Assembly: GCA_965219535.1 (NCBI GenBank)
Contig: CBDCNV010000002.1
Location: 1,470,001-1,502,000 of the forward strand
Reading direction: 5' to 3'
Source of the DNA: Opitutales bacterium
GTDB taxonomy: Bacteria > Verrucomicrobiota > Verrucomicrobiia > Opitutales > PNEW01
Length of the DNA: 32,000 nucleotides
Part shown: one piece after another, positions 312 through 31,655 of the stretch
How positions within the stretch are numbered: the stretch's first letter is position 1
How the letters are laid out: the number at the start of each line of letters is the position of its first letter
Notes under the pieces: model-generated
What the model saw: only the letters and a program-made list of their open reading frames with translations
Told to the model about the DNA's origin: nothing
Databases searched by the model: none
Position numbers and translations under genes: made by a program

Positions 312-480
312 CAGGTGAAACACGGTTCTTGATCTCAATGTCATCCCTCCTGCATTTGCAGGATGGATTGACTACGGCTATTCCCTAGCGCTTTTTTAAA
401 ATGTAATTTTAAAAAACGCGTAGGAAAAATCCGACACTCAGCTAGCTGAGTTATTGCGATCATGCACCGAGTTTCACCTG
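312..480 (+). repeat. Core element copy A (forward): 28-bp terminal inverted repeats enclosing three hairpins
   Basis: CAGGTGAAACACGGTTCTTGATCTCAAT at 312-339 pairs with ATTGCGATCATGCACCGAGTTTCACCTG at 453-480. Internal hairpins: GTCATCCCTCCTGCA-TTT-GCAGGATGGATTGAC, the AT-rich CTAGCGCTTTTTTAAAA-TGTAA-TTTTAAAAAACGCGTAG, and ACTCAGC-TA-GCTGAGT. Confidence 0.9.
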
Positions 481-733
481 AGCTTTCTCCCCGTTCTTCC
501 CGAACTTCCTGTAAAAAATCTCTTTTCTTTTTATGTGTCTCTTGTGCCTCTTGCCTGCCGGCCATAGCCTTGGCGACGGCTGGTGGCCAACAATCTTAAC
601 TTTTTTTTTATCGGCGTTCATCCGCGTTATCAGCGATTAATTCTTTTCGTTCTTCCTGTGTTTCCTGTTAAAGTTTTTTATTTTTGTTTTTTATCTTTCT
701 CTAATATCCTTCGCTAATTAGTTTAGAGATCAG

Positions 734-1480
734 ATGAATCAGATCGAATTACCTCAAAGTGAAAAATTTCATTTATTTCTCCTTGCTGGCCAGTCAAACA
801 TGGCGGGCAGGGGCTTGCTTGAGGAAGAGGATACTAATCCTCACCCGCGGGTCCTGACAATAACGAGAGATGGAGATTGGGTTCCGGCAGTGGATCCTAT
901 CCACTTCGATAAGCCGAATAAGGGAGTTTGCCTTGGCAGAACATTCGGCATTGAGGTTGCAGAACAGGATCCGGATATCGTGGTCGGCCTCATCCCCGCT
1001 GCCTGTGGCGGCTCTCCCATTTCTACCTGGCAGCCCGGTATGTATTTTAAGGCGACGGAAAGTCACCCCTACGACGACGCCATCCAAAGAACGAAAAGAG
1101 CGATGGAGGATGGCGAGTTAAAAGCCATTCTCTGGCATCAGGGAGAGACCGATGCACGGGAGCCAGATCTCTCCACAATTTATGAAAAAAAACTGCGCCG
1201 ATTAATTGTGCGATTCAGAGACGACCTCAACAGCCCGAATCTGCCCTTCATCATCGGTCAAATGGGCCAATTTCTGGGTAGCGAGTTTGATCGCGACGGA
1301 CTCGTCAATGAAGCCCACGTTAAGATAGCAAAAGAAGATGACAACTCCACCTTCGTCCCCTCCGATGGTCTGGGCTGCCTAAGCGACAACGTCCATTTCG
1401 ACGCCAAAGCATTACGCGAGTTCGGACATCGGTACGCGGAGGTGTATTTGCGTATACGCAAATACGTGTCTAAAGTCTAA
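734..1480 (+). CDS. SASA/DUF303-type carbohydrate esterase (sialate O-acetylesterase-like, SGNH-related)
   Basis: 248-aa ORF. The N-terminal LAGQSNMAGRG motif is characteristic of the sialic-acid 9-O-acetylesterase (SASA) family, with WHQGE downstream. The TAA stop lies inside a GTCNAAR heptamer array. Confidence 0.8.
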   Translation: MNQIELPQSEKFHLFLLAGQSNMAGRGLLEEEDTNPHPRVLTITRDGDWVPAVDPIHFDKPNKGVCLGRTFGIEVAEQDPDIVVGLIPAACGGSPISTWQPGMYFKATESHPYDDAIQRTKRAMEDGELKAILWHQGETDAREPDLSTIYEKKLRRLIVRFRDDLNSPNLPFIIGQMGQFLGSEFDRDGLVNEAHVKIAKEDDNSTFVPSDGLGCLSDNVHFDAKALREFGHRYAEVYLRIRKYVSKV

Positions 1481-1495
1481 GGTCCAAAGTCGAAA
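1468..1495 (+). repeat. GTCNAAR heptamer array (4 units) containing the esterase stop codon
   Basis: GTCTAAA GTCTAAG GTCCAAA GTCGAAA. The TAA at 1478-1480 lies inside unit 2. Confidence 0.85.
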
Positions 1496-1720
1496 GCGAA
1501 GAGCGCTCTCGCGCGGGGAGAAAGAGGGAATAGCCACAGCATTAAATGAAGATTTATGAATGATGAATGCAGAATGGAGAGGGATAGCCACCAGCCGTCG
1601 CCAAGGCTATGGCCGGCAAGCAAGAGGCACAGAAGGTACAAGAGGGATAAGAATAAATTTAACCACGAATGAACACGAATCGACACGAATAAAAGAGAGA
1701 AGAAATAGTAGTAACAAAGT

Positions 1721-2131: not shown

Positions 2132-2764
2132 ATGAAACTTTTGATTACGGGTGCGGATAATGTGTTGGGGAAGTGTGCTTTCAGGCATTTTTCTAAAGAG
2201 CACGATGTGACGGCAGTCGGGCGTGGATCCGATCTCCGTGATCCTACCGCCACTGCTTCGCTGGTCGAAGGGGTGGATGCTATACTTCATCTCGATGGCT
2301 ATCACGCTGATGACACGCAGTCGGAGTTTGATTTGCTCGATATATCGGCGCGGGGTACTTATGTGCTGATGCATGCGGCCCGCAATGCGGGTGTCGAGCG
2401 GGTCGTGGTGGGGAGCACGCTGGATTTTTTTGAGGATTATCCCGAGGACTACATAATAAATGAGGACTGGCAGCCGTTGCCGAAGCCGGATGCTGCCTCC
2501 CTTGCACCGCTCATGGTCGAGTTGACGGCGCGGGAGTTTGCGCGCGAGGGGGGTATTGAAGCGGTCTGTCTGAGGTTCGGAGCGCTGGACGCTACAGGTA
2601 CGCCGGAAGCGGATGCGATGAAGGCAATTGATGAAGCACTCAAACTTGAGTTCAACCAGCCTGGCTACCGGTGGGGGTTGTTTCACGTTCACTCGGATGG
2701 GAATCGGTTCGCGTCGACGATGCTGACCAACCCTTTACGGATGCAGGAGCAACAGGCAAGCTGA
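2132..2764 (+). CDS. NAD(P)-binding Rossmann-fold protein, epimerase/dehydratase-like (atypical SDR)
   Basis: 210-aa ORF. N-terminal KLLITGADNVLG glycine-rich turn, and an ARNAGVERVVVGST segment typical of extended SDRs. A GAGGG sequence lies about 14 nt upstream of the ATG. Confidence 0.6.
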   Translation: MKLLITGADNVLGKCAFRHFSKEHDVTAVGRGSDLRDPTATASLVEGVDAILHLDGYHADDTQSEFDLLDISARGTYVLMHAARNAGVERVVVGSTLDFFEDYPEDYIINEDWQPLPKPDAASLAPLMVELTAREFAREGGIEAVCLRFGALDATGTPEADAMKAIDEALKLEFNQPGYRWGLFHVHSDGNRFASTMLTNPLRMQEQQAS

Positions 2765-2838
2765 TGGCGAGCTCAGGACAGGCCCTTCGACTAGGCTCAG
2801 GACAGGCCCTTCGACTGCGCTCAGGACAGGCAAGCTGA
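2764..2838 (+). other. 24-codon mini-ORF (MASSGQALRLGSGQALRLRSGQAS) built from a 24-nt tandem repeat, bridging the two SDR genes with TGATG overlaps at both ends
   Basis: GCTCAGGACAGGCCCTTCGACT occurs at 2771-2792 and 2795-2816, with a partial copy at 2819-2830. ACAGGCAAGCTGATGGC is duplicated at 2752-2768 and 2826-2842, 74 nt apart. Confidence 0.4.
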
Positions 2839-3641
2839 TGGCTAGTGTTAACTCAGGACGCGTATGCATCTACGGCGCCGGGGGACCGGTTGCCGCTTCT
2901 GCTGTGCAGTCGCTCAAGAATGATTACGAGTTGCGACTGACCGACCTGAAGGATGTGAAGGATATTATTAAGGGTGAGCCGCAGTCCAAGGGCGCTCCGA
3001 TGCCCGAAGTTCCCGAACCGCCGCACGAGTGGCGCTGTGTTGATGTGACGGATTATGACCAGGTCCGGTCGGCCGCCGAAGGGATGGACGCGCTGATCAA
3101 TACAACCGTATTGAGACCCGACCCCGTTCTGGCTTTTCATGTAAATTTAATCGGCGCATACAATGTGATGAAAGCTGCGGTGGACTGCGGGATCACGCGG
3201 ATCATCCACACCGGGCCGCGTCACATCCGACTCAACCACGAGGGTGATTACTGGTACGATTTTGATATCCCGGATGAAGCACCCCTGCACCCGGGATCGG
3301 ATCTCTATGCCCTGACGAAATACTTAGGGGGGAACGTCGTGCGCGTATTCGCGGAAGCTCACAATCTCGAGGTGGTGACTTTTCTTTATTGCGGATTCCA
3401 TCCCGGTGACGCAGGTGACCTGGCGGACGGCAGCGGGATAGGACCCTTTTTTACTTCCTGGGAGGACACGGGAGAGGCATTCCGCTATGGACTGCGCGCG
3501 ACGAAGCTGACGCAGCCCTATGAAGTATTTGATATTGCCGCCAACTTGCCGCACGGGAAATTCAGTTCCGCGAAAGCGGAACGGTTACTGGGATGGACTC
3601 CTAAACATAATTTCGAGAGGCTGTATAGGTCAAAAAAATAA
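2838..3641 (+). CDS. NAD(P)-dependent epimerase/dehydratase-like SDR
   Basis: 267-aa ORF. VCIYGAGGPVA Rossmann turn, NLIGAYNVMKAA, and a YxxxK catalytic motif (DLYALTKYLG). Confidence 0.65.
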   Translation: MASVNSGRVCIYGAGGPVAASAVQSLKNDYELRLTDLKDVKDIIKGEPQSKGAPMPEVPEPPHEWRCVDVTDYDQVRSAAEGMDALINTTVLRPDPVLAFHVNLIGAYNVMKAAVDCGITRIIHTGPRHIRLNHEGDYWYDFDIPDEAPLHPGSDLYALTKYLGGNVVRVFAEAHNLEVVTFLYCGFHPGDAGDLADGSGIGPFFTSWEDTGEAFRYGLRATKLTQPYEVFDIAANLPHGKFSSAKAERLLGWTPKHNFERLYRSKK

Positions 3642-3784: not shown

Positions 3785-3807
3785 GCGGGAAAATGCAAAA
3801 TCTTATT

Positions 3808-3979
3808 CAGGTGAAACACGGTGCTTTATCTCAATGTCATCTCTCCTGCATCTGCAGGAGTGATTGACTACGGCTATTCCCCAGCGCTTTTTTAAAATTG
3901 TGATTTTAAAAAACGCGTAGGAAACATCCGACATCCCGCTGTGGCGGGATTATTGCGATCAAGCACCGTGTTTCAACTG
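3808..3979 (+). repeat. Core element copy C (forward)
   Basis: Same architecture. The third hairpin carries the compensated variant ATCCCGC-TGT-GGCGGGAT instead of ACTCAGC...GCTGAGT. Confidence 0.9.
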
Positions 3980-5239: not shown

Positions 5240-5410
5240 CAGTTGAAACACGATGCTTGATCGCGATGTCATCCCACCCGCATTTGCGGGAGGGATTGAC
5301 TACGGGTGATCCCTAGCGCTTTTTTTAAATCATCATTTAAAAAAACGCGTAGGAAACATCCGACACTCAGCTGTGCTGAGTTATTGAGATCAAGCACCGT
5401 GATTCACCTG
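5240..5410 (+). repeat. Core element copy D (forward)
   Basis: CAGTTGAAACACGATGCTTGATCGCGAT ... ATTGAGATCAAGCACCGTGATTCACCTG. The first hairpin apex is CCCGCA/TGCGGG. Confidence 0.9.
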
Positions 5411-9039: not shown

Positions 9040-9185
9040 GTTGAAGACGTGGAGAAAGAATAGCCACCAGCCGTCGCCAAGGCTATGGCCGGCAGGCAAG
9101 AGGCACAAGAAAGAATTGCACCGCAGAGGCGTAGAAGGCGAGGGAGTAATCAGTGAACAGTGAACGGTGAACAGTGAACAGTTGG

Positions 9186-9224: not shown

Positions 9225-9329
9225 CCTGAACCCTGAACCCTGAACCCTGAACCCTGAACCCTGAACCCTGAACCCTGAACCCTGAACCCTGAACCCTGAA
9301 CCCTGAACCCTGAACCCTGAACCCTGAAC
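9225..9329 (+). repeat. Perfect heptanucleotide microsatellite (CCTGAAC)x15, ending 4 nt before the HAD start codon
   Basis: I counted 15 uninterrupted units from 9225 to 9329. Confidence 0.95.
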
Positions 9330-9333
9330 CCCA

Positions 9334-10162: not shown

Positions 10163-10197
10163 ATCGAAATCGAAATCGAAATCGAAATCGAAATCGA
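10163..10197 (+). repeat. Hexanucleotide repeat (ATCGAA)x5 plus a partial unit
   Basis: Direct reading of ATCGAAATCGAAATCGAAATCGAAATCGAAATCGA. Confidence 0.9.
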
Positions 10198-10322
10198 TTC
10201 AGTGAACAGCCGTCGTCGCTTCGCTTCAGCCTTCGCCGAGGCTATGGCCTGACAAGATGGAGTGACAAGGTGAACGGTGGGAGAGTTGCTGATTTATTAT
10301 AATGGTGCTAACTCATTCTACC

Positions 10323-10378
10323 TGATATCCGACGTTTGATATCCGACGTTTGATATCCGACGTTTGATATCCGATGTT
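10323..10378 (+). repeat. 14-nt tandem repeat (TGATATCCGACGTT)x4, last unit with one mismatch
   Basis: Direct reading. It follows the TATAAT-containing module at 10283-10322. Confidence 0.9.
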
Positions 10379-10584
10379 TGATGTGCGAGATGTTGAACCT
10401 ACATCGTATATCGCATATCGGATATCGTACCGAGGACGAAGTCCGACATCTTCCAAATCGTATATCTTTCTCCCTGAACCGTGAACCGTGAACCCTAATA
10501 AAATAGACCAAGACGAAGAGGCAGACGAAGACAAAGAGGGCTTGCGCAATTTAAAACCTAACACCTAACACTTAAAACTTAAAC

Positions 10585-11553: not shown

Positions 11554-11723
11554 CAGGTAAAACACGATGCGTTATCTCAATAGCTCAGCATAGCTGAGCG
11601 CCAGATGTTTCCTACGCGTTTTTTTAAATTGTGATTTAAAAAAAGCGCTAGGGATCACCCGTAGTCAATCCACCCGCAAATGCGGGATGGATGACATTGA
11701 GATAAAGCATCGTGTTTCACCTG
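11554..11723 (-). repeat. Core element copy E (interior inverted relative to A-D and G-I)
   Basis: Hairpin order is reversed: GCTCAGC-ATA-GCTGAGC first, then the AT-rich hairpin, then GTCAATCCACCCGCA-AAT-GCGGGATGGATGAC. The flanks are in the same orientation as those of forward copies. Confidence 0.9.
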
Positions 11724-12842: not shown

Positions 12843-12886
12843 GGAGTTGCGGATTTATTATAATAGTGCGAACAATTCTTACCTGA
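12843..12886 (+). promoter_or_regulatory. Second copy of the TATAAT module (TATAAT at 12859-12864), upstream of the VOC gene at 12972
   Basis: GAGTTGCGGATTTATTATAATAGTGCGAACAATTCTTACCTGA, followed by degenerate CCTGAAC-type heptamers up to the ATG. Confidence 0.3.
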
Positions 12887-12971
12887 ACCCTGTACCGAGA
12901 GCGTAGCTCGACATCTTCCACCCTGAACCCTGAACCTTGAACCGTGAACGCTGAACCCGTATGGTGAATAT

Positions 12972-14907: not shown

Positions 14908-15086
14908 CGTCAAAAAGTCACCAGCCGTCGCCAAGGCTGTGGGCGTCAGGCAAAAAAGAAATTTACACCGCGGAGGTGGAGATTGAGAGTAGATAGTCAC
15001 TTTATCAAAGGGGTATCAGTGAAAAAAACCACGAATGAACACGAATAGGCACGAATAAAAGAGAGAAGAAATAGTAGTAACAAGAT

Positions 15087-15256
15087 CAGGTGAAACACGA
15101 TGCTTTATCTCAATAGCTCAGCATAGCTGAGCGCCAGATGTTTCCTACGCGTTTTTTTAAATTGTGATTTAAAAAAAGCGCTAGGGATCACCCGTAGTCA
15201 ATCCACCCGCAAATGCGGGATGGATGACATTGAGATAAAGCATCGTGTTTCACCTG
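15087..15256 (-). repeat. Core element copy F (interior inverted)
   Basis: The last ~142 nt are identical to copy E. The right flank CTTTCTTTCCGAACTTCCCGGCCTTCCTGTAAAAG matches the right flank of forward copy H. Confidence 0.9.
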
Positions 15257-16789: not shown

Positions 16790-16852
16790 GGGGGATGCGC
16801 GGTAGCGCGTGTTAAGTTTTAAGTGTTAGGTTTTAGGTAATTGACTTAAAAC

Positions 16853-18227: not shown

Positions 18228-18302
18228 ATACCTATAACATCTGACGAAGACGAAGAGGCAGACGAAGACGAAGAGGACTTGCGCTAAGTATATCCCAAAC
18301 GC

Positions 18303-19534: not shown

Positions 19535-19808
19535 GTTAATCGATTGCGGATATCGGATTTTTGGGAGAAAGAGGGATAGCCACTACCGAGCGAAGCGAGA
19601 TCTTCCAAAGGCACAAGAAGCACAAGAGGCTCAAGAAAGAAATATGGAACTCAGGGACTCAGGAATCAAAGATTAAATAACCGTGGAGGCGCAGAGGTGG
19701 AGATTGAGAATAGATAGTCACTTTCTCAAAGGGGTATCAGTGAAAAAAACCACTAATGGACAAGAATTGGCACGAATAAAAGAGAGAGGAAATAGTAGTA
19801 ACAAAAGT

Positions 19809-19974
19809 CAGGTGAAACACGGTGCTTGATCTCAATTACATCTCACCCGTATTTACGGGAGTGATGTTACGGCTATTTCATAGCGCTTTTTTTAAATTGT
19901 GATTTAAAAAAACGCGTAGGAAACATCCGACACTCAGCTATGCTGAGTTATTGAGATCAAGCACGATTCGACTG
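19809..19974 (+). repeat. Core element copy G (forward, class II, degenerate right arm)
   Basis: Near-identical to copy B over the left TIR and first hairpin. The right TIR carries a small deletion (GCACGATTCGACTG). Confidence 0.85.
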
Positions 19975-20327
19975 AGCTCGTCACAGGCCGTGGTTCACCT
20001 TACAATTGTTCCAGGTCTCTTTATAAGGCTCTTTGTATATACTCTTCATAAATCTAAAACCTAACACCTAAAACTTAACACGAGCGTTAGCGCTCAACCT
20101 TTCCGCTTGCCACGCCATAGCTCGACTGAGCGTCGGCGGGTTCTCCCCGCTCTTCCTGTAAAAATCTTTCTTTTCTTTTTTGTGTCTCTTGCCTGCCGGG
20201 CATAGTCCCGCGACTGCGGGACGACGGCTGTTGCTTTTTGTGGGTAATAAATCTACTCCTTATATTGTATTCGTGTTCATTGGTGGTTAATTTTCTTCAT
20301 ATTTGATTAAGCTCAATTCCGAAAAGT

Positions 20328-23465: not shown

Positions 23466-23542
23466 AGGTGGAACGGGCTGTCCCTAGCGCGTTTGGATAT
23501 GTTTGTAAGTAAGAAGCGTGCTAGGGATAGCCCGCTCCACCT
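23466..23542. repeat. 26-bp imperfect inverted repeat (23/26 matching) with a 25-nt loop; shares the CCCTAGCGC word with the core element
   Basis: AGGTGGAACGGGCTGTCCCTAGCGCG at 23466-23491 versus CGTGCTAGGGATAGCCCGCTCCACCT at 23517-23542. It lies between the amidohydrolase 5' end and the paralog 1 3' end. Confidence 0.6.
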
Positions 23543-23573: not shown

Positions 23574-25799
23574 TCATTCGATCGTTATCTCATCTACTTC
23601 GACGGTTAGGTCATCGCCATCTTCGTTAGTGAAGGTGGCATTTATACTTCGCGTGGGCTGAGGGGTGTTGTCGGACTTAAAATTGTTCTGGGTGATCAAT
23701 CGATCGAAGCCACGGGTTGTCGATCCGCTCTCGGCAACGACGATTGAAGCTCCATTTGTCTGAACGAGGTCACCTCCGGTTATACGTAATCCGGGGTTGC
23801 CGGCGGCGACGGTGAAGGACCCTTCTCCAAATAAGAGGTGAGGAACTGCATCGCCATCGGCATCGATGTCGCCGACGGTTAAGCGTACCGCGATCGGTAC
23901 TCCGCGCGCATCGATACCAACTTTGCCCGTGCTACCACTGAAAACTGTATTCGATAACTGCATGCCTCCCATTCCCGTTGAATTGATCACTTCGACGAGG
24001 GTGACGTCCGCTTGTGCATCATAGACTTGTCCCTCGGGGAAGAGTGCCTGGTTAACGGCATTGATTCTACCGACGGTGAAAATACTGAAGAAGGTATTGG
24101 AGTCTGCTCCATCGATAACTACACTGGGTCTTCCGGTGACATACTCGACTGCCTGGTTGTAGCGCGGGGGTATTGCCGGGGGCAGGAAAGTGGTCGGGTC
24201 GAGGGTTACAGTAAAGTTGCCTGCGCCTGAGAACTCTACCTGCACAATGTCCTCGGTTTCGTCCATGAAGGAGACGCGAGTGATCTGATTGGGTCTTGCC
24301 AGGAGCCGGATACTTTCCCCGGTGAGTAAAATCTGATCGAATACATTACCGTTAGGATGCTGAATATTTTCCCCGGCGATATCACCCGTTCCTTCAAGGA
24401 CCAGAGGCACGGAGGGAGCCGCAACTGTGATGACCGCGGTATCACTATCAGCTGTACCTTCGGCGTTAGTTATCTGTACCCAGAAGTTTGTATCCGCATT
24501 GAGTGCACCTGTGTCTAAGACATTGCTCGTAGCGCCGGTGACAGGACTGGCGGTGTCACCACTGTTACCGGTAAACCACTGGTAAGTTAAATCTTCACCG
24601 CTGGCGGCAACGGACAAACTCGCGGATGCACCTGATGCAACTTCCTGGCTCGTGGGTTGCGTAGTGATAGCTGGAGCATCTGCTGGAGGCGGTGCCTCAG
24701 ATCCAGTTCCGGGAGCACCAATGGGTGTAAATCCAAAATCGTCAATGGCGGTACGGCTTCTTTCAGGATTAATATTAGGATCATCCTTCATCACTATCCT
24801 GCTAATGCCACCCGGGGCTCCCAGTTCCACTGCATTAATCGTTACAAAGCCAGGTTTGAACTCAGGTGTTATATCCCCTTCTAAATTTGTAAGGGTGGCG
24901 ATTAAGTTATCGTTTGTATCATAGACATCAACTGACCCATCGACATCTGAGCTACCTGATAAGACCACGGTAGCCCCGAAAAAATCAATTTCATATGCAG
25001 GGGTTTCAAAGGTAACAGTCGCTTCTTCACCATTAAATATCGCATAAGTATGAGGAATTGATCGCACACGTCCACCAGCAGCAGGTTCACCAAAAAATTG
25101 GATGAGACCTCCTTCAAAAGAAGCAGTAGTGGGTGGCGTTCCAATGACTAACGGTTCTGACTGACCTGCGCCCGCGCCAAATTCACTAAACATTGTGTAA
25201 AAAGTGTTGTTAGAGGGAAAATCCGTCAGGGTGAATCCCAGGTCATCGAGTGATAATTTTCCGGTTACATTCGAAAGCTTTACTTCAATAATGCCGCCGA
25301 GAAAGTTAAAATCATCTTCATCAAAAAAATTACCACTCTCTGCGACAAAGCTATATAATGTGGGGTTGGTATCGGGGCTGATATTAGTCGGCAGCCCTTC
25401 GATTACGCCGTCCTCGCCGATAAGGACGATCGCCTGACTATCTGCTCCGAACGCCGATTCATTGAGCACTCCCCTGATCTCCATCCTGCCAGCACCCGTG
25501 TTCTCAGCCGCATAAAATTCAATAAATTGAAGGCCTCTTGAGGATGAAATTCTCCCCTCCTGTCCAGGTGCCAGGGTTATCGCTTTTGTACCTGAATGTA
25601 AGAGCGCAGGATCCTCTAAAGTCTCCACAGTAAAACCGGATAGCGTAACCGTGTTTGGCTCCTGACCTATGATGATATTGCCTTCACCGCTGATGTCCTC
25701 GAAATCGGTGAACACCTCCAGGTCTTGAGGCAGGGCAATGAGAAGCAGCGGGGATAAAGTTGAGAAAATTATGAGCGCGAGAGAATTTTTGAAGAACAT
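23574..25799 (-). CDS. Secreted 741-aa protein, tandem paralog 1. Domains: signal peptide, two divergent beta-sandwich-like modules ending in (I/L)DD(L/F)GFT, an Ig-like domain, a ~255-aa invariant C-terminal domain and an acidic tail. No family recognised.
   Basis: Signal peptide MFFKNSLALIIFSTLSPLLLIALP. Ig-like block ITTQPTSQEVASGASASLSVAASGEDLTYQWF...VQITNAEGTADSDTAVITV. The C-terminal 281 aa are nearly identical to paralog 2. Confidence 0.9.
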   Translation of the reverse strand: MFFKNSLALIIFSTLSPLLLIALPQDLEVFTDFEDISGEGNIIIGQEPNTVTLSGFTVETLEDPALLHSGTKAITLAPGQEGRISSSRGLQFIEFYAAENTGAGRMEIRGVLNESAFGADSQAIVLIGEDGVIEGLPTNISPDTNPTLYSFVAESGNFFDEDDFNFLGGIIEVKLSNVTGKLSLDDLGFTLTDFPSNNTFYTMFSEFGAGAGQSEPLVIGTPPTTASFEGGLIQFFGEPAAGGRVRSIPHTYAIFNGEEATVTFETPAYEIDFFGATVVLSGSSDVDGSVDVYDTNDNLIATLTNLEGDITPEFKPGFVTINAVELGAPGGISRIVMKDDPNINPERSRTAIDDFGFTPIGAPGTGSEAPPPADAPAITTQPTSQEVASGASASLSVAASGEDLTYQWFTGNSGDTASPVTGATSNVLDTGALNADTNFWVQITNAEGTADSDTAVITVAAPSVPLVLEGTGDIAGENIQHPNGNVFDQILLTGESIRLLARPNQITRVSFMDETEDIVQVEFSGAGNFTVTLDPTTFLPPAIPPRYNQAVEYVTGRPSVVIDGADSNTFFSIFTVGRINAVNQALFPEGQVYDAQADVTLVEVINSTGMGGMQLSNTVFSGSTGKVGIDARGVPIAVRLTVGDIDADGDAVPHLLFGEGSFTVAAGNPGLRITGGDLVQTNGASIVVAESGSTTRGFDRLITQNNFKSDNTPQPTRSINATFTNEDGDDLTVEVDEITIE

Positions 25800-25840
25800 G
25801 GCGATCCCATTTGTCCGGTTAATATTAAAACGTATGAATT

Positions 25841-25869
25841 TAATTAATGGCTAACGGCTGCCCCGTCAA
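25841..25869 (-). promoter_or_regulatory. Sigma70-like promoter of paralog 1: TTGACG, 17-nt spacer, TAATTA
   Basis: Minus strand: -35 at 25869-25864 and -10 at 25846-25841, about 42 nt upstream of the ATG. The same architecture is conserved upstream of all three paralogs. Confidence 0.5.
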
Positions 25870-26054
25870 ATTTTAACCGCGGATAACACGGATGAACGCC
25901 GATAAAATAAATAGTGAAGATTGTTAGCCACAAAAGGCACAAGAGGCACAAGAAAGAAATTTGCACCGCAGAGGCTCAGAGGCGCAGAGGTGGAATTGGA
26001 GGAGTCTAAAGTCGGAGGTCGAAAGTCGAAAGTTGGAAAAAGCAAAATATTGTT

Positions 26055-26225
26055 CAGTTGAAACACGGTGCTTGATCGTCAATGTCATCCTTCCCGCAGA
26101 TGCGGGAGGATTGACTACGGCTGATCCCTAGCGCTTTTTTTAAATAATGATTTAAAAAAACGCGTAGGAAACATCCGACACTCAGCGATGCTGAGTTATT
26201 GAGATCAAGCACCGTGTTTCAACTG
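26055..26225 (+). repeat. Core element copy H (forward), 256 nt upstream of the paralog 1 start codon
   Basis: CAGTTGAAACACGGTGCTTGATCGTCAAT ... ATTGAGATCAAGCACCGTGTTTCAACTG. First hairpin: GTCATCCTTCCCGCA-GA-TGCGGGAGGATTGAC. Confidence 0.9.
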
Positions 26226-26361
26226 AGCTCTCTTTCCGAACTTCCCGTTCTTCCTGTAAAATCTTTTTTGTGCTTCTTGTGCCTCTTGTGGCCAACTCTA
26301 CTTTTACCCTGCGTCTCTGCGGTGAACTTTCTTAATCTAAAACCTTACACTGATCGATAAA

Positions 26362-28557
26362 TCACTCGATCGTTATTTCATCCACCTCGACGGTTATCTC
26401 TTCATCGTCCTCATTGATAAAGGTTGCATTAATGATCTGTGTGGGCTGAGGAGTGTTGTCGGACTTAAAATTGTTCTGGGTGATCAATCGATCGAAACCG
26501 CGGGTTGTCGATCCGCTCTCGGCGACAACGATTGAAGCTCCATTTGTCTGAACGAGGTCTCCCCCGGTGATGCGTAAACCGGGGTTGCCAGCGGCGACGG
26601 TGAAGGACCCTTCACCGAACAAGAGGTGAGGCACTGCATCGCCATCGGCATCGATGTCACCGACGGTTAAGCGTACCGCGATGGGTACTCCGCGCGCATC
26701 GATACCAACTTTACCCGTGCTACCACTGAAAACTGTATTCGATAACTGCATGCCTCCCATTCCCGTTGAGTTGATCACTTCGACGAGGGTCACGTCCGCT
26801 TGTGCATCGTAGACCTGTCCCTCGGGGAAGAGTGCCTGGTTAACGGCATTGATTCTACCAACGGTGAAAATACTGAAGAAGGTATTGGAGTTTGCTCCAT
26901 CGATGACAACGCTGGGTCTGCCCGTGACATACTCGACTGCCTGGTTGTAGCGTGGGGGTATTGCCGGGGGCAGGAAAGTGGTCGGGTCGAGGGTCACAGT
27001 AAAGTTGCCTGCCCCTGAAAACTCTACCTGTACTATGTCCTCGGTTTCGTCCATGAAGGAGACGCGAGTAATCTGGTTGGGTCTTGCCAGGAGCCGGATG
27101 CTTTCCCCGGTGAGTAAAATCTGGTCGAAGACATTACCGTTCGGGTGTTGAATGTTTTCCCCGGCGATATCCCCCGTTCCTTCCAGGACCAATGGTACGG
27201 AGGGAGCTATAACTGTGATGACTGCGGTGTCGCTATCCACACTCGTTCCCGATACCTGGCTTACCCGCACCCAGCAACTCGAATTCTCGTTTACTTCCCC
27301 TTTGTCTAAGGTGCTACTAGTGGCTCCGGCTATTGGATTAGAGGTGTCGCCACTGTTGCCAAGATACCATTGGTAGGAGAGGCCATCGCCACTGGCGGTG
27401 ACTGATACGAGAACTGAGGTGCTGATCGACACTTCCTGGCTCGCGGGTTGAGTGGTGATGGTTGGTGCATCAGCAGGGGGCGGAGATGATGTGTCAGTGC
27501 CGGGAGCGCCGATGGGAGTAAATCCTAAGTCATCAATTCTAGTTCGACTGAACAGTGGGTTTACATTGGGATCGTCTATTAAGACCAACCTGCTAATGCC
27601 GCCCGGTGCTCCCAATTCAACCGCATTGATCGTTATAAAATCAGGTTTAAAATCGGGACTGAGATCAGCTTCAAAATCCGAAAAAGTTGCGAGCAGGTTA
27701 TCCTCTGTATCGTATACTTCAACCGAACTATCAGGATCGGTACTGCTCGAAGTTACAATCGTTCCCCCGAAAAAATCCACCTCGAAGACTGGAGTTTCAA
27801 AAGTGATGGTCGCGGTTTCGCCGTTTTGTATGTTGTAAGCAAAAATGGTGCGCCCACCGTCAAAAATAAACCCACCTGTTAAGGTGGCACTAAACGGCGA
27901 TTCCCCAACGATAATCGGAGCTGATATACCGTCACCCCCACTCAGTTCATCAAAGGTAGTAAAGACGGTGTTGTTGACGGGTCTATCAGTCAGGGTGATT
28001 CCCAAATCATCAAGGGAAAATTTTCCTGAAACATTGAATACCTTCATTTCTTCAATGCCGTTAAGAAAATCAAAATCAGTGGTATCGAGGAAACTATTAC
28101 TGTCGGAGACAAAACTATATAAGGGGGGATCGGAGCCAGGGCTGATATCACTCGACAGATTTTCGACAATGCCATTATAGACGACCGAGGTTAATATCAG
28201 ATCATCCAGGTCTATATAGATTTTACCTCTGAACTCGATCTTGCCAGCGCCCGCCGATTCAGCCGCATAGAATTGAATCAGTTGAATCCCTCCTCTTTCC
28301 GCTACTATTTTCCCCTCCTGACCGGGCCCGAGGGTTATCGCTTTTGTTCCAGAGTGTAGTAGCGATGGATCCTCTAAAGTCTCTACGGTGAAGCCCACTA
28401 ACTTGACCCTGTTTGGCACTTCCCCGATGAAAAATTCACCTTCACCACTGATGTCCTCGAAATCCGTGAATATCTCCAAGTCCTGAGGCAGAGCTGAAAG
28501 GAGAAGTGGGGATAGAATGGAAAAAATTATGAGCGTTAGAGAATTTTTAAATGACAT
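26362..28557 (-). CDS. Secreted protein, tandem paralog 2 (731 aa from ATG 28557; the ORF track extends it to 28587)
   Basis: The MSFKNSLTLIIFSILSPLLLSALP signal peptide aligns with the starts of paralogs 1 and 3 (CATGGC(G/T)ATCC context). The architecture is the same. The 3' ~790 nt are about 94% identical to paralog 1. Confidence 0.9.
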   Translation of the reverse strand: MSFKNSLTLIIFSILSPLLLSALPQDLEIFTDFEDISGEGEFFIGEVPNRVKLVGFTVETLEDPSLLHSGTKAITLGPGQEGKIVAERGGIQLIQFYAAESAGAGKIEFRGKIYIDLDDLILTSVVYNGIVENLSSDISPGSDPPLYSFVSDSNSFLDTTDFDFLNGIEEMKVFNVSGKFSLDDLGITLTDRPVNNTVFTTFDELSGGDGISAPIIVGESPFSATLTGGFIFDGGRTIFAYNIQNGETATITFETPVFEVDFFGGTIVTSSSTDPDSSVEVYDTEDNLLATFSDFEADLSPDFKPDFITINAVELGAPGGISRLVLIDDPNVNPLFSRTRIDDLGFTPIGAPGTDTSSPPPADAPTITTQPASQEVSISTSVLVSVTASGDGLSYQWYLGNSGDTSNPIAGATSSTLDKGEVNENSSCWVRVSQVSGTSVDSDTAVITVIAPSVPLVLEGTGDIAGENIQHPNGNVFDQILLTGESIRLLARPNQITRVSFMDETEDIVQVEFSGAGNFTVTLDPTTFLPPAIPPRYNQAVEYVTGRPSVVIDGANSNTFFSIFTVGRINAVNQALFPEGQVYDAQADVTLVEVINSTGMGGMQLSNTVFSGSTGKVGIDARGVPIAVRLTVGDIDADGDAVPHLLFGEGSFTVAAGNPGLRITGGDLVQTNGASIVVAESGSTTRGFDRLITQNNFKSDNTPQPTQIINATFINEDDEEITVEVDEITIE

Positions 28558-28598
28558 GGCTATCCCTGTTGTCCGGTTAATATTCAAGCGATTGAATT

Positions 28599-28627
28599 TA
28601 ATTAATAGCTATGAGTCCCCCCGTCAA
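28599..28627 (-). promoter_or_regulatory. Sigma70-like promoter of paralog 2: TTGACG, 17-nt spacer, TAATTA
   Basis: Minus strand: -35 at 28627-28622 and -10 at 28604-28599. The leader ...AATATTAACCGGACAA..GGGAT.GCCATG is homologous to that of paralog 1. Confidence 0.5.
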
Positions 28628-28634
28628 ACTATAG

Positions 28635-28666
28635 GTCAAAAAGTCAAAAGGTCAAAAAGTCAAAAA
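28635..28666 (+). repeat. GTCAAAAR octamer array (4 units), 7 nt from the paralog 2 -35 box
   Basis: GTCAAAAA GTCAAAAG GTCAAAAA GTCAAAAA. On the minus strand this reads as TTGAC every 8 nt. Confidence 0.85.
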
Positions 28667-28842
28667 GGGAAGAGCGGTGCAATGTCGGATTGCAGATGTC
28701 GGAATGTAAGATGTCGAGCTTAGCTTTCGGTAGCGGATTGATCTGGAATGGCAGGTTATCAAACTTCTCTCTTGATAACAGATTGGTAATGGATTGCCGC
28801 GCTGCGCTCGCAATGACAAAAAGGGGGGGAATTCAGTGGGAA

Positions 28843-28926
28843 CAGTGAACAGTGAACAGTGAACAGTGAACAGTGAACAGTGAACAGTGAACAGTGAACA
28901 GTGAACAGTGAACAGTGAACAGTGAA
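28843..28926 (+). repeat. Perfect heptanucleotide microsatellite (CAGTGAA)x12 between paralog 3 and the paralog 2 promoter
   Basis: I counted 12 uninterrupted units. Shorter CAGTGAA/GGTGAAC runs occur at 9142-9181, 13360-13388 and 23402-23427. Confidence 0.95.
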
Positions 28927-28970
28927 AGAGCAGTGACACCTAACACATAATAGGCATTAGGTCTCCTACA

Positions 28971-28994
28971 TTTTGACTTTTTGACCTTTTTGAC
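28971..28994 (-). repeat. GTCAAAAR array immediately after the paralog 3 stop codon, in that gene's sense orientation
   Basis: The reverse complement reads TAG G GTCAAAAAG GTCAAAAA GTCAAAA. Confidence 0.85.
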
Positions 28995-28995
28995 C

Positions 28996-31230
28996 CTACT
29001 CAATCGTCAACTCCTCGACGGCAACTTCGATCGCATCGCCATCCTCGTTCGCGAAGGTGGCATCAATACTCAGTGTCGGCTGAGGGGTGTTGTCGGACTT
29101 GAAGTTGTTCTGTGTGATCAGGGTGTCAAACCCGGTCGTTGTCGAACCACTCTCGGCGACGACAACAGCGGCACCGTTTGTCTGCAAGAGGTCTCCACCC
29201 GTGATCCGTAACCCGGGGTTGCCGGCTGGAACGGTGAAGGAGCCTGAGCCAAACAGAATGTGCGGTACCGCATCGCCACTGGCATCGATATCGCCAATCG
29301 TTAAGCGTACCCCGATAGGTACTCCACGCGCGTCGATACCGGTCTTGCCCGTACTTCCACTAAACGCGGTGTTCGACAGTTGTATGCCGCCCATTCCCGT
29401 GGAATTAACAATCTCAACAAGGGTAACGTCAGCCTGCGCATCATAAACCTGTCCCTCGGGGAAGAGGGCCTGGTTAAAGGCGTTTATCCTACCCACGGTG
29501 AAGATACTGAAGAAGGTATTGGCGTCCGCTCCTTCGATCACGACGCTCGGTTTGCCCGTCACGTACTCAACGGCCTGGTTGTAGCGTGGTGGGATGGCCG
29601 GGGGAAGGAAGGTGGCCGGATCCAGGGTTACAGTAAAGGTCCCATTACCTGAGAATTCCACCTGTACGATGTCCTCGGTTTCATCCATAAAGGAGACGCG
29701 AGTAATCTGATTCGGTCTCGCCTGTAACCGGATGGTTTCTCCAGTGAGTAAAATCTGGTCGAAGACATTACCGTTGGCATGCTGGATATTTTCACCTGCA
29801 ATGTCACCCGTACCGTCGAGGACGAGAGGAACGGCGGGAGCCGCTACGGTTACGACCGCGGTATCGCTGTTCGCGGTACCCCCGGCGTTAGTAATCTGAA
29901 CCCAGAAGCTGGTGCTCGCGGAAAGCGCACCCGTGTCTAAGGTTCCAGCGATCGCGCCGGCGACGGGACTGGCGGTGTCACCGCTGTTACCGGTATACCA
30001 CTGGTAGGTTAAATCGTCACCGCTGGCAGCAACGGACAAACTCGCGGATGCACCGGATGCAATTTCCTGGCTTGCAGGTTGGGTCGTGATCGCAGGAGCA
30101 GCAGCGGGTGGGGGACCCTCTGATCCGCTACCCGGGAATCCAACCGGGGTATATCCAAAATCGTCGATGCAAGTAGTACCGTCTTCATTATTAGTAGGGT
30201 GATCTCTCAATACAATTCTACTTATACCATCTGGTATCCCTAAGTCACCTGCATTAATATTTACAGAACCGGGTTTAAAGAGGGGGTCAACAGAAGATTC
30301 TAAATTATCAATCGTAACGACTAAGTTGTCGTTTGTATCATATACGTCGATAAATCCATCTGGTAAAATCCCTTCTTTTGGTGGTGTACCCTGAGTTGCG
30401 AACACATCAATTTTATAGGCCGGTGTTTCAAAAGTGATCGTTGCTTCCACACCATTCGTTACTCCATATGCATAAGCTGCAGATCGGACATTGCACCCGA
30501 AACGAGCGAATTCAGAATGAACAGCTCCTCCCTCAATAGTAGCAATATAAGGCGGCATCCCAAGGATTATCGGTTCAAACTCCCCATCACCTGCACCATA
30601 TGTATCAAACTCTTCGTAAACAGTGTTGTTTGAGGGGAAGTCGGTCAGGGTGAATCCGAGGTCATCGATCACCAGTTTTCCCGTAACATTTAAAAACTTA
30701 ACGTTATTTATCCCGTTATGGAAATCAAGATCGGTGTTATCAAAAAAACTGCCGCTGTCTCCGACCCAGCTATATAAAGTCGGATTGGCACCGGGGCTTA
30801 TATTTGCCGGTAGTCCTGTGATAACAGCACCAGCTTCAATACCACCGAGGACGAGTTCAGTGTGCCTATCAGCGCCTCCGGAAGCACCGACATTTTTAAT
30901 CCCTCTTACTTCTATTTTGCCCGCCCCTGTCGATTCACCCGCGTATAATTGAAGAAATTGTAGCCCTCTGCTGGAGATTATTTGCCCCTCCTGTCCGGGG
31001 CCCAGGGTGAGCGCCTTGGTTCCCGAATGTAATTGCGCCGGATCTTCTAAAGTTTCCACCGTGAAACCGACCAAGGTAATCACGTTTGGCTCCTCGCCGA
31101 TGAAGATCGTCCCTTCTCCACTGACATTTTCAAAATCGGTGAATATTTCCAGATCTTGAGGGAGGGCGATGAGAAGAAGAGGTGAAAAAACTGAGAAAAT
31201 AATGAGTGTTAGAGTATTTTTGAATGACAT
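28996..31230 (-). CDS. Secreted 744-aa protein, tandem paralog 3 (most divergent of the three)
   Basis: MSFKNTLTLIIFSVFSPLLLIALP signal peptide and the same domain order. The C-terminal domain is about 85-90% identical at the protein level to paralogs 1 and 2. Confidence 0.9.
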   Translation of the reverse strand: MSFKNTLTLIIFSVFSPLLLIALPQDLEIFTDFENVSGEGTIFIGEEPNVITLVGFTVETLEDPAQLHSGTKALTLGPGQEGQIISSRGLQFLQLYAGESTGAGKIEVRGIKNVGASGGADRHTELVLGGIEAGAVITGLPANISPGANPTLYSWVGDSGSFFDNTDLDFHNGINNVKFLNVTGKLVIDDLGFTLTDFPSNNTVYEEFDTYGAGDGEFEPIILGMPPYIATIEGGAVHSEFARFGCNVRSAAYAYGVTNGVEATITFETPAYKIDVFATQGTPPKEGILPDGFIDVYDTNDNLVVTIDNLESSVDPLFKPGSVNINAGDLGIPDGISRIVLRDHPTNNEDGTTCIDDFGYTPVGFPGSGSEGPPPAAAPAITTQPASQEIASGASASLSVAASGDDLTYQWYTGNSGDTASPVAGAIAGTLDTGALSASTSFWVQITNAGGTANSDTAVVTVAAPAVPLVLDGTGDIAGENIQHANGNVFDQILLTGETIRLQARPNQITRVSFMDETEDIVQVEFSGNGTFTVTLDPATFLPPAIPPRYNQAVEYVTGKPSVVIEGADANTFFSIFTVGRINAFNQALFPEGQVYDAQADVTLVEIVNSTGMGGIQLSNTAFSGSTGKTGIDARGVPIGVRLTIGDIDASGDAVPHILFGSGSFTVPAGNPGLRITGGDLLQTNGAAVVVAESGSTTTGFDTLITQNNFKSDNTPQPTLSIDATFANEDGDAIEVAVEELTIE

Positions 31231-31271
31231 GGCGATCCCTGATAAAGCGTTAAAATATAAGTGATTGAAAT

Positions 31272-31299
31272 TTATTAAGAGGTGTTATCCGGGTGTCAA
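31272..31299 (-). promoter_or_regulatory. Sigma70-like promoter of paralog 3: TTGACA, 16-nt spacer, TAATAA
   Basis: Minus strand: -35 at 31299-31294 and -10 at 31277-31272. The 14-bp perfect palindrome TTATCCGCGGATAA (31303-31316) abuts the -35. Confidence 0.45.
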
Positions 31300-31485
31300 A
31301 TTTTATCCGCGGATAACGCGGATGGGAAATAGAGGAGTCGAAAGTCGAAGATCGATCAGGGAATAGCCACAAAAAGCACAAAAGGCACAAAACCGAAATT
31401 TGCACCGCAGAGGCGCAGAGGTGGAATTGGAGGAGTCTAAAGTCTAAGGTCGAAAGTCGAAAGTGGGAAAAAGCAAAATGTTGTT

Positions 31486-31655
31486 CAGGTGAAACACGGT
31501 GCATGATCTCAATGTCATCCATCCCGCAGATGCGGGAGGATTGACAATGGCTATTCCTAACGCGTTTTTTAAAATCATGATTTTTAAAAACGCGTAGGAA
31601 ACAGCCGACACTCAGCTGTGCTGAGTTATTGCGATCAAGCACCGTGTTTCACCTG
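31486..31655 (+). repeat. Core element copy I (forward), 256 nt upstream of the paralog 3 start codon
   Basis: Same architecture, embedded in an upstream region homologous to 25800-26054. Confidence 0.9.

What the first reader, a model, noticed from the sequence alone, without database searches (positions are those of the whole stretch)
312..31655. Nine copies of a ~170-nt element with 28-bp terminal inverted repeats and three internal hairpins that covary between copies
Copies lie at 312, 1721, 3808, 5240, 11554, 15087, 19809, 26055 and 31486, and all are intergenic. Each folds as a four-way junction. The closing stem is CAGGTGAAACACGGTGCTTGATCTCAAT paired with ATTGAGATCAAGCACCGTGTTTCACCTG, and it encloses three hairpins. 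The hairpins keep their pairing through compensatory changes. Hairpin 1 apex is CCTGCA/TGCAGG in A and C, CCCGCA/TGCGGG in D, E, F, H and I, and CCCGTA/TACGGG in B and G. Its base switches from GTCA..TGAC to TTACA..TGTTA. Hairpin 3 is ACTCAGC/GCTGAGT in most copies, ATCCCGC/GCGGGAT in C, and GCTCAGC/GCTGAGC in E and F. Double substitutions that preserve pairing mean the secondary structure itself is under selection, either in RNA or in single-stranded DNA. That goes beyond what a decaying repeat would show. I do not recognise this as any named RNA family or MITE. Nine copies in 32 kb implies hundreds per genome.
Basis: seen in the sequence. Interest (0 to 1): 0.82.

Follow-up and report, generated by a model that had tools for sequence, protein, structure and literature searches.

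The report
Structured palindromic intergenic repeat in Opitutales
Nine copies of a real ~170-base non-coding repeat sit between genes of a marine verrucomicrobial (Opitutales) genome island; its self-pairing fold is kept by matched mutations, but it is a low-copy, MITE-like mobile repeat of a known general kind, not a proven RNA gene.

Summary
Nine copies lie at the stated coordinates and all are intergenic. Two corrections: E and F have their interior inverted, and G is complete, with a 24-nt mini-insert interrupting its right inverted end.

I collected 29 copies from the window, a related Opitutales genome (OY829953.1) and metagenome contigs. The predicted four-way-junction fold is 92% paired. 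Twenty-five of 71 pairs carry changes on both sides, against 13.5±2.3 in shuffles (0/500). One divergent copy keeps pairing through 16 double changes with 3 breaks.

The extrapolation to hundreds of copies per genome fails. About 17 copies were found in the blocks fetched from the 4.5-Mb relative (a lower bound), 10 of them in the syntenic 40 kb. None lie in the 9 kb on either side of the window.

No Rfam, plasmid or phage match was found. There is no autonomous partner, no clean target-site duplication, no G·U excess and no orientation bias relative to genes. Orthologous sites are filled, empty or flipped in place.

Best reading: a lineage-restricted, MITE/REPIN-like palindromic mobile repeat whose hairpins matter at the DNA level. 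It sits in mosaic intergenic regions full of short tandem repeats and nested mini-inserts. I rate it a new variant of a known kind.

The parts
312..480 (+). Copy A, complete
   Evidence: CM 172 bits
1721..1889 (+). Copy B, complete. Hairpin-1 variant TTACATC...CCCGTA
3808..3979 (+). Copy C, complete. Hairpin-3 variant TCCCGC/GCGGGA
5240..5410 (+). Copy D, used as the reference copy for the fold
5240..5267 (+). Left inverted end of copy D (28 nt). It pairs with 5383-5410
   Evidence: helix 1: 27 pairs, 93.5% paired, 9 with double changes
5268..5299 (+). Hairpin 1 of copy D (GTCATCC..CCCGCA-loop-TGCGGG..GGATTGAC)
   Evidence: helix 2: 6 of 13 pairs with double changes
5303..5362 (+). Central hairpin of copy D, with an invariant A/T-tract stem TTTTTTTAAAT/ATTTAAAAAAA
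   Evidence: helices 3 and 4
5365..5381 (+). Hairpin 3 of copy D (ACTCAGC-loop-GCTGAGT)
   Evidence: helix 5: 5 of 7 pairs with double changes, 97.9% paired
5383..5410 (+). Right inverted end of copy D
11554..11723 (-). Copy E. Its interior is inverted relative to A-D. It shares its 55-nt left flank with copy B, and its ortholog in the relative is in the opposite orientation
15087..15256 (-). Copy F, interior inverted, 95% identical to E including flanks
   Evidence: (D18)
19809..20001 (+). Copy G, complete but with its right end interrupted. The whole 376-nt block that contains it is absent at the orthologous site of the relative
19965..19988 (+). 24-nt nested mini-insert GATTCGACTGAGCTCGTCACAGGC inside the right inverted end of G
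   Evidence: The same insert sits at the same position in 4 copies of the relative. One search shows a clean presence/absence between window copy H and its ortholog
26055..26225 (+). Copy H, complete. It lies in the spacer of a tandem gene triplication
31486..31655 (+). Copy I, complete. Its left flank is homologous to those of H and C
   Evidence: (D19)

Best explanation
The element is a lineage-restricted, non-coding, roughly 170-bp palindromic mobile repeat of marine Opitutales. It is MITE-like or REPIN-like and has no transposase of its own. Its 28-30-bp inverted ends and three internal palindromes stay self-complementary because the element is handled as folded single-stranded or hairpin DNA. 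Pairing would be maintained by requirement (recognition or processing by a trans-acting enzyme that reads structure), by intra-strand templated repair or gene conversion between the arms, or by both. The same inverted ends occasionally recombine and flip the interior in place.

Shown here:
- a discrete repeat family with sharp ends
- the fold prediction
- covariation in every helix
- dispersal to unrelated loci
- filled, empty and flipped states at orthologous sites
- use of the element as a target by a smaller 24-nt insert
- low copy number and clustering

Inferred:
- that the relevant folded molecule is DNA rather than RNA
- that movement needs an enzyme supplied in trans, which has not been identified
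- that part of the spread is by segmental duplication and recombination among mosaic spacers rather than by transposition
For: Family and ends. A total of 29 copies were found in the window, in OY829953.1, in L049 and in L078, with more at one site in L081-L083.

Structure: z about -10 for both DNA and RNA folding. In the 27-copy alignment, 92.4% of cells are paired against 36-42% when partners are slid. Twenty-five pairs have double changes against 13.5±2.3 in shuffles (0/500) and 7-11 when slid. The divergent copy L012:435-600 keeps 16 double-changed pairs with only 3 broken, and scores 96.7 bits with the structure model against 46 with a sequence-only HMM. Paired columns average 91% identity and unpaired columns 76%.

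DNA-level leaning: G·U cells number 34 and A·C cells 25. Element orientation is unrelated to the direction of flanking genes. The terminal dinucleotides themselves covary, for example TAGG..CCTA and ACGG..CCGT. There is no promoter or terminator excess and no Rfam family.

Mobility and turnover: dispersed copies lie between housekeeping genes, for example gltX-rluA. At that site the element is absent in L079, present in L003, flipped in L078 and L083, and present as another subfamily in L081/L082. Orthologous spacers of the window and the relative differ in presence (G; L011_139; L011_1330) and in orientation (E).

Precedent: compensatory change in hairpin-forming mobile repeats is documented for REPINs and bcr1, and Opitutus terrae is rich in REPs.
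Against: No target-site duplication was found. The flanks are only T...A or AT...AT, which is itself palindromic and so ambiguous.

No longer element with these ends, and no transposase next to any copy, was found in 596 Gb of genomes, the JGI metagenomes or the viral contigs. The two insertion sequences present, an IS481-family and an IS1595-family element, have unrelated ends.

The filled-versus-empty differences are larger than the element: 15 nt + element + 22 nt at one site and 376 nt at another. Movement of the 170-nt unit alone is therefore not demonstrated. Immediate flank modules recur with the element, and H and I lie in a tandem duplication. Near-identical strains show no change in any copy.

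The lack of a G·U excess does not exclude RNA if elements flip often. No transcript or DNA-structure data exist.
Confidence: 0.5

Rival explanations
1. It is a cis-acting RNA structure. Copies are co-transcribed in the UTRs or spacers of the island's genes. The 28-bp stem and hairpins would act as RNase III/E processing sites, transcript insulators or 3' stabilisers, as reported for Correia, ERIC and bcr1 elements. Selection on RNA folding would then produce the covariation.
For: There is strong covariation with variable loops. All copies are intergenic and next to gene ends. bcr1 is transcribed and shows RNA-level compensatory change. Frequent flipping could erase any G·U bias.
Against: There is no orientation preference relative to genes: A and B are sense, D, F and H antisense, and C lies between convergent genes. 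G·U cells number 34 and A·C cells 25. No Rfam match was found and no terminator or promoter signal. The terminal bases that would lie at the foot of the stem also covary along with the flanking AT, which fits a DNA palindrome better.
Confidence: 0.2
2. It is not independently mobile. The 170-nt unit would be one motif of BIME-like mosaic spacers that spread and are reshuffled only by segmental duplication, homologous recombination and gene conversion. Palindromy would be maintained purely by hairpin-templated mutation (quasi-palindrome correction).
For: Flank modules co-occur with the element. The filled-versus-empty differences are composite blocks. H and I lie in a tandem duplication, and E and F share flanks. 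Hairpin alleles are chimeric between subfamilies. Orthologous spacers are rewritten while genes stay about 90% identical.
Against: Copies occur at five or more distant loci of the 4.49-Mb relative, including between housekeeping genes. The ends are sharp and common to all copies whatever lies next to them. The same element appears in different subfamily, flank and orientation combinations at one site.
Confidence: 0.17
3. The copies are a family of invertons. Each would be a segment flipped by a shared site-specific recombinase acting on the 28-bp inverted ends, switching the neighbouring catabolic or surface genes.
For: The interior is flipped in place at orthologous sites. Identical flanks carry opposite orientations (B versus E). 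There is no target duplication, the copies cluster in one gene island, and the size and end length are typical of invertons (own knowledge: Bacteroides invertible promoters).
Against: No promoter-like site lies inside the element. Copy C sits between convergent gene ends. No recombinase gene is in the window or next to other copies. Seven copies have the same orientation in three near-identical assemblies. Covariation of the internal hairpins is not explained.
Confidence: 0.08
4. The copies are integron-like attC recombination sites that separate gene cassettes.
For: The repeats are imperfect palindromes lying between single genes. The ends contain AAC...GTT, and the folded single strand is the presumed active form.
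Against: Genes on either side face both ways and are large, up to 1091 aa. Gene order is conserved with the relative rather than shuffled. No integrase is in the window. GTGAAAC/GTTTCAC fits the R''/R' consensus at only 5 of 7 positions each. At 170 nt the element exceeds known attC sizes. Copies also sit between housekeeping genes.
Confidence: 0.02

Closest known systems
bcr1 repeat of the Bacillus cereus group (about 155 bp; Okstad 2004, Klevan 2007, as reviewed in PMC3184786)
   Same: A small non-coding intergenic repeat whose distribution is not conserved between close strains. It has a cruciform-like fold with independent stem-loops that is kept by compensatory base changes.
   Different: bcr1 is flanked by 5-bp direct repeats and is known to be transcribed. 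Here no duplication is seen and transcription is unknown. The sequences are unrelated, the host phylum is different, and this element has a long 28-bp closing stem plus three hairpins.
Correia/NEMIS elements of Neisseria and ERIC/IRU of enterobacteria (MITEs)
   Same: Length of 100-170 bp, inverted ends of about 26-28 bp, intergenic location, a long hairpin fold, and no coding capacity (and own knowledge).
   Different: Those elements duplicate a TA target and occur in hundreds of copies. Here there is no clean duplication and only about 20 copies per genome, clustered, with three internal hairpins and documented flipping in place.
REPINs / REP sequences mobilised by RAYT (HUH Y1) transposases; TIR families of TIRYT genes (PMC3116915, PMC3733652)
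   Same: A hairpin-forming palindromic unit with no target duplication, frequent compensatory changes on both sides of the hairpin, mosaic and clustered arrangements, and precedent in Opitutales (Opitutus terrae is REP-rich).
   Different: This element is not a doublet of one short REP. GTAG-like tags are not conserved among copies. No RAYT or TIRYT gene could be looked for in the full genome. The unit is longer and branched.
Cyanobacterial minitransposons with nested small dispersed repeats (SDRs; Elhai et al. 2008, Genome Res 18:1484, cited from own knowledge and the reference list seen) and heptamer STRRs
   Same: The genome context is the same kind. Spacers are packed with tandem 6-8-mers. 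Mini-inserts of 22-30 nt are nested in the tandem repeats and in the MITE-like element itself, with clean presence/absence between relatives.
   Different: The host is a verrucomicrobium, not a cyanobacterium, and the sequences are unrelated. The paper could not be read here, so the comparison is from memory.
BIMEs (bacterial interspersed mosaic elements) of E. coli
   Same: Spacers are built as mosaics of a limited set of short motifs in variable combinations, with a palindromic unit as the core.
   Different: The core here is 170 nt with its own 28-bp inverted ends. The motifs are octamer and heptamer word arrays.

Membership tests
MITE (non-autonomous DDE transposon) | Small (<~500 bp), non-coding, multi-copy | tested here: met
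   Length 169-173 bp with no credible ORF. Nine copies in the window and 29 in all.
MITE (non-autonomous DDE transposon) | Terminal inverted repeats | tested here: met
   The ends are 28-30 bp and 93.5% paired across copies.
MITE (non-autonomous DDE transposon) | Target-site duplication flanking each copy | tested here: not met
   No direct repeat is present beyond a palindromic AT in about half of the copies. The empty-site comparison gives no clean duplication.
MITE (non-autonomous DDE transposon) | Ends shared with an autonomous insertion sequence | tested here: not met
   No pair of ends further apart than about 190 bp was found in the genome, metagenome or viral scans. The ends of the IS481-family and IS1595-family elements are unrelated. 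The scans need an exact 19-nt degenerate match, so a diverged partner could be missed.
MITE (non-autonomous DDE transposon) | Insertion polymorphism between related genomes | tested here: inconclusive
   Filled, empty and flipped states exist. However, the differing blocks are larger than the element and the direction of change (insertion or deletion) is unresolved.
REPIN / RAYT system | Hairpin-forming palindromic unit with compensatory changes and no duplication | tested here: met
REPIN / RAYT system | Made of two inverted copies of one short REP carrying a conserved GTAG/CGTC tag | tested here: not met
   Hairpins 1 and 3 differ in sequence in most copies. The GTAG next to the central hairpin varies (GTTG, TTTG, GTGG, GGAG).
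REPIN / RAYT system | A cognate RAYT/TIRYT (HUH Y1) gene flanked by the repeat | not testable with these tools
   Only 8-kb blocks of the relative's genome were available. None of the genes next to the copies is a Y1 transposase.
Curated structured RNA family (Rfam 15) | Match at or above a family's gathering score | tested here: not met
   No match at gathering thresholds. In E-value mode only miRNA-type hairpin hits appear, at 12-20 bits against gathering scores of 40-90.
Structured RNA gene or element in general | Strand-specific signal: G·U tolerated over A·C, and fixed orientation relative to transcription | tested here: not met
   G·U cells number 34 and A·C cells 25. Orientation relative to genes is mixed.
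Inverton (invertible promoter) | Segment between inverted repeats found in both orientations at the same site | tested here: met
   Window E against L011_2670. L003 against L078 and L083. This holds only between genomes, not within a population.
Inverton (invertible promoter) | Outward promoter inside the segment and a recombinase acting on the repeats | tested here: inconclusive
   No sigma-70-like site lies inside the element and no recombinase is nearby. Verrucomicrobial promoters may not fit the scan, and the full genome could not be searched.
Integron attC site | R''/R' core sites (RYYYAAC / GTTRRRY), cassettes facing one way, IntI nearby | tested here: not met
   The core sites match at 5 of 7 positions each by eye. 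Genes face both ways. No integrase is in the window. No attC covariance model was available.

The most novel reading that the evidence does not exclude
The element could be the largest member of a Nostoc-like system of nested, structure-dependent mobile DNA in Verrucomicrobia. That system would also include the tandem 6-8-mer arrays and the 22-30-nt mini-inserts that target defined positions, including this element's own inverted end. Everything would be moved by an unknown machinery that reads single-stranded DNA folds rather than sequence ends. The four-way-junction unit would be both a substrate and an in-place flip-flop at gene boundaries of a catabolic island.
Probability: 0.15. Interest if true: 0.8.

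Novelty: new variant of a known kind. Interest (0 to 1): 0.5.

Why it matters
Structured palindromic repeats such as REP/REPIN, Correia, ERIC and bcr1 are known mainly from Proteobacteria, Firmicutes and cyanobacteria. This is a clean, statistically supported case in marine Opitutales. It has an unusually rich fold, with four helices that all covary, and no target duplication. It also shows recurrent flipping in place and a 24-nt mini-insert that hits one fixed position of its inverted end.

Several complete HiFi genomes of the clade exist. That makes it a tractable system for asking how hairpin-dependent small mobile DNA is moved and kept palindromic, and whether such units affect expression of the polysaccharide-catabolic genes they separate.

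It does not at present open a new class of RNA, and its copy number is modest.

Tried and rejected
- **Rfam:** no family matched at gathering thresholds or in E-value mode.
- **Annotated plasmids and phages:** BLAST found no match. The viral contig scan gave a single chance hit.
- **Autonomous partner:** the genome and metagenome scans showed only element-sized pairs of ends.
- **Local insertion sequences:** the IS481-family element (16797-18230) and the IS1595-family element in the upstream flank have unrelated ends. The latter has a normal 8-bp duplication, which shows that ordinary transposons do leave duplications in this genome.
- **'Truncated' copies:** rejected. The right ends are interrupted by a 24-nt insert, not truncated.
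- **Target-site duplication:** searched by eye over 27 copies and at an empty site. None was convincing.
- **Promoters and terminators:** at background level.
- **GTAG-tagged REP doublet idea:** the tags are not conserved.
- **attC idea:** rejected on gene orientation, gene size, conserved synteny and lack of an integrase.
- **Cyanobacterial origin:** the heptamer repeats suggested it, but it is rejected. The relative is labelled Opitutales, and the homologs that carry a name are from Cerasicoccus, Ruficoccus and Coraliomargarita.
- **Weak model hit at 23466-23542:** a different palindrome, not a copy.
- **Elhai 2008 paper:** could not be retrieved.

Full report
**1. Observation**

Reading out the sequence, a MAFFT alignment, nhmmer and a covariance model all agree on nine copies, at 312, 1721, 3808, 5240, 11554, 15087, 19809, 26055 and 31486. 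All nine lie between genes that have Pfam support: SASA esterase, epimerases, three PhyH dioxygenases, an ABC transporter fusion, HAD, glyoxalase, sulfatase, desaturase, GGT, amidohydrolase and three tandem Ig_7 proteins.

Copy D folds into the proposed four-way junction both as RNA (-81.4 kcal/mol, z = -10.4) and as DNA (-48.9 kcal/mol, z = -10.6).

Two details were missed:
- E and F carry the interior in the opposite orientation.
- G is not shorter. Its right inverted end is split by a 24-nt insertion (19965-19988) and then resumes, so G spans 19809-20001.

**2. Where it occurs**

I scanned one genome for each of 185,579 species for the degenerate end pattern. Genuine hits came from a single genome, OY829953.1, a 4.49-Mb 'MAG: Opitutales bacterium'. 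The other 26 hits are single chance matches. Homologs of a neighbouring housekeeping protein that carry a name come from Cerasicoccus, Ruficoccus and Coraliomargarita. This supports the verrucomicrobial assignment.

Four of the nine blocks fetched from that genome (2.040-2.080 Mb) are syntenic with the window at 85-94% nucleotide identity. They hold 10 of its roughly 17 detected copies. The rest are at 0.03, 1.98, 2.67, 3.99 and 4.28 Mb.

The JGI metagenome scan added one contig with two copies (L049). The window itself matches two long-read ENA contigs at 99.7-99.97% identity. The 9.3 kb upstream and 9.2 kb downstream of the window contain no copy. The nine copies are therefore a local cluster, and 'hundreds per genome' is not supported. 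The count in the relative is a lower bound, because only blocks with an exact pattern match were fetched.

**3. Covariation**

I scored a 27-copy alignment (A7) against the four-way-junction structure.

| Measure | Observed | Shuffled | Partners slid 1-3 columns |
|---|---|---|---|
| Cells paired | 92.4% | 87.9±0.3% | 36-42% |
| Pairs (of 71) with changes on both sides | 25 | 13.5±2.3 (0 of 500 shuffles reach it) | 7-11 |
| Cells with changes on both sides | 82 | 27.5 | 7-18 |

Double changes occur in every helix, including the inverted ends. One subfamily has GTGACTCGCGGTG...CACCGCGAGTCAC in place of GTGAAACACGGTG...CACCGTGTTTCAC.

A divergent copy found by nhmmer (L012:435-600) scores 46 bits with a sequence-only HMM and 96.7 bits with the structure model. 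Of its 65 scorable pairs, 44 are unchanged, 16 are changed on both sides and still paired, 2 are changed on one side, and 3 are broken. Paired columns are more conserved than loops and junctions (91% against 76% mean identity).

**4. RNA or DNA**

Several results lean towards DNA.
- Non-Watson-Crick cells show no wobble excess: G·U 34, A·C 25, other mismatches 113.
- Copies lie in sense, antisense, divergent and convergent positions relative to their neighbours.
- Promoter-like and terminator-like sites are at background level, and none recurs inside the element.
- No Rfam family matches, even at permissive thresholds.
- Even the outermost nucleotides covary (TAGG...CCTA in L015, ACGG...CCGT in L049). 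The palindrome often continues into the flanking AT. This is not what a sequence-specific DDE transposon end or an RNA stem foot would predict.

The caveat is that frequent flipping would expose both strands to transcription over time and could hide a G·U bias. RNA is therefore not excluded.

**5. Mobility, flipping and context**

Dispersed copies of the relative sit between ordinary genes, such as gltX-rluA, cytochrome c genes and an amidohydrolase. I followed the rluA-gltX spacer through relatives whose RluA proteins are close to that of L003 (81-98% identical).

| Locus | State at the rluA-gltX spacer |
|---|---|
| L079 | element absent |
| L003 | present |
| L078, L083 | present with the interior flipped |
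| L081/L082 | present as another subfamily with other flanks |

Between the window and the relative:
- Copy E is flipped.
- Copy G, together with 376 nt, is missing in the relative.
- The relative has copies where the window has none.
- Copies B and E share an identical 55-nt left flank but have opposite orientations.

The filled-versus-empty differences are composite (15 nt + element + 22 nt). No target-site duplication is visible. The immediate flank modules recur with the element. Three near-identical assemblies show no change in any copy. They differ only in tandem-repeat copy number and in one insertion of the IS481-family element. The element clearly turns over on the scale of species divergence. 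Independent transposition of the 170-nt unit is not proven. Recombination among mosaic spacers, and inversion across the 28-bp ends, both contribute.

**6. No mobiliser found**

No longer element bounded by these ends exists in the collections I scanned. No transposase or recombinase gene lies next to any copy, apart from the unrelated IS481-family element beside L030 and a lone integrase-core fragment about 850 nt from the L012 copy. The IS481-family element in the window and the IS1595-family element upstream have unrelated ends. The IS1595-family element has a textbook 8-bp duplication. The complete genomes could not be searched for HUH/RAYT-type genes.

**7. Comparison with known systems**

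The literature already describes bacterial intergenic repeats of this size whose fold is kept by compensatory change.
- bcr1 of Bacillus is about 155 bp, cruciform-like, transcribed and flanked by 5-bp direct repeats.
- Opitutus terrae, also in Opitutales, is reported as highly enriched in REPs, and inverted-repeat families associated with tyrosine transposases are described.

The present element meets the size, inverted-end and multi-copy criteria of a MITE. It fails the target-duplication and parent-IS criteria. It behaves like a REPIN, being a hairpin with no duplication and with compensation. It is not a doublet of one tagged REP.

The surrounding spacers resemble what Elhai et al. (2008) described in Nostoc, which I cite from memory. 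They contain arrays of tandem heptamers and octamers and 22-30-nt mini-inserts nested in them and in the minitransposon itself. One example is a clean 24-nt presence/absence inside the inverted end of copy H's ortholog.

**8. Verdict**

The finding is real and its structural claim is statistically sound. The copy-number extrapolation is wrong.

The most likely explanation (about 0.5) is a lineage-restricted, MITE/REPIN-like palindromic mobile repeat whose hairpins are maintained at the DNA level. In this reading it occasionally flips in place and is part of a mosaic repeat system.

| Rival | Confidence |
|---|---|
| cis-acting RNA structure | 0.2 |
| non-mobile mosaic motif kept palindromic by templated mutation | 0.17 |
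| inverton family | 0.08 |
| attC-like site | 0.02 |

I rate it a new variant of a known kind, of moderate interest.

Noticed in passing
window 19965-19988; also L010:7353, L022:5153, L022:7931, L035:7274: A 24-nt near-palindromic mini-insert (GATTCGACTGAGCTCGTC[A/G]CAGGC) sits at one fixed position of the element's inverted end, between ..AAGCAC and CGTGTTTCACCTG. Window copy H lacks it, while its otherwise near-identical ortholog has it.
   Followed up: yes
window 19583-19604: A 22-nt insert (CTACCGAGCGAAGCGAGATCTT) lies inside the TAGCCA|CAAAAGGCACAAG octamer module and is absent at the orthologous position of the relative. Related TACCGAG...ATCTTCC inserts are nested in CCTGAAC heptamer arrays (for example about 12880-12915 and 16130-16165) and elsewhere.
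   Followed up: partly
window 553-584, 9063-9110, 1590-1625, 14920-14950, 15868-15900 and many loci: A 30-nt hairpin-forming unit (CCAGCCGTCGCCAAGGCTATGGCCGGCAGG) is nested inside the GGCACAAGA/TCTTGTGCC octamer modules. It occurs about 20 times in the fetched Opitutales sequence.
   Followed up: partly
window 9225-9331, 28840-28931, 10165-10200, 10330-10390, and all spacers: The spacers are packed with tandem 6-8-mers (CCTGAAC about 16 times, CAGTGAA about 13 times, GTCAAAAG, ATCGAA, GGCACAAGA, CGCGGATA, CACGAAT) and a 14-mer. Copy number differs between near-identical strains (3 heptamers, 2 hexamers). This looks cyanobacterium-like but is in a verrucomicrobium.
   Followed up: partly
120 nt on each side of every copy (window and loci): In 28 of 28 copies the left flank is purine-rich (mean 0.66) and the right flank pyrimidine-rich (0.36), whatever the orientation of the element or the genes. 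This is equivalent to saying that regions downstream of genes are purine-rich, and regions upstream pyrimidine-rich, on the sense strand. The element sits at the switch point of a larger quasi-palindromic spacer.
   Followed up: partly
window 16797-18230 (transposase 16951-18141, minus strand); end fragment near 31811-31870: An IS481-family insertion sequence is present in several copies in both genomes. It is inserted in one of two near-identical strains (1378 bp, L040 against L039), within TTAGGT-type repeats.
   Followed up: partly
L037 6784-7518 (2.5 kb upstream of the window): A 735-bp IS1595-family element with 19-bp inverted ends and an 8-bp duplication TTAATAGT.
   Followed up: yes
window 23574-31230: Three tandem paralogs (741-744 aa, Ig_7 domain, minus strand) with a period of about 2.7 kb at 65-88% identity. 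Two of the three spacers carry the element.
   Followed up: no
window 13444-14887 and 2132-3641: A sulfatase and an epimerase each appear split into two overlapping or adjacent ORFs. These may be frameshifts or pseudogenes.
   Followed up: no
window 23466-23542: A separate 77-nt palindrome (GGTGGAACGGGCTGTCCCTAGCGCG...CGTGCTAGGGATAGCCCGCTCCACC) scores weakly with the element's model (25 bits). It shares only the CCCTAGCGC motif and is not a copy.
   Followed up: partly
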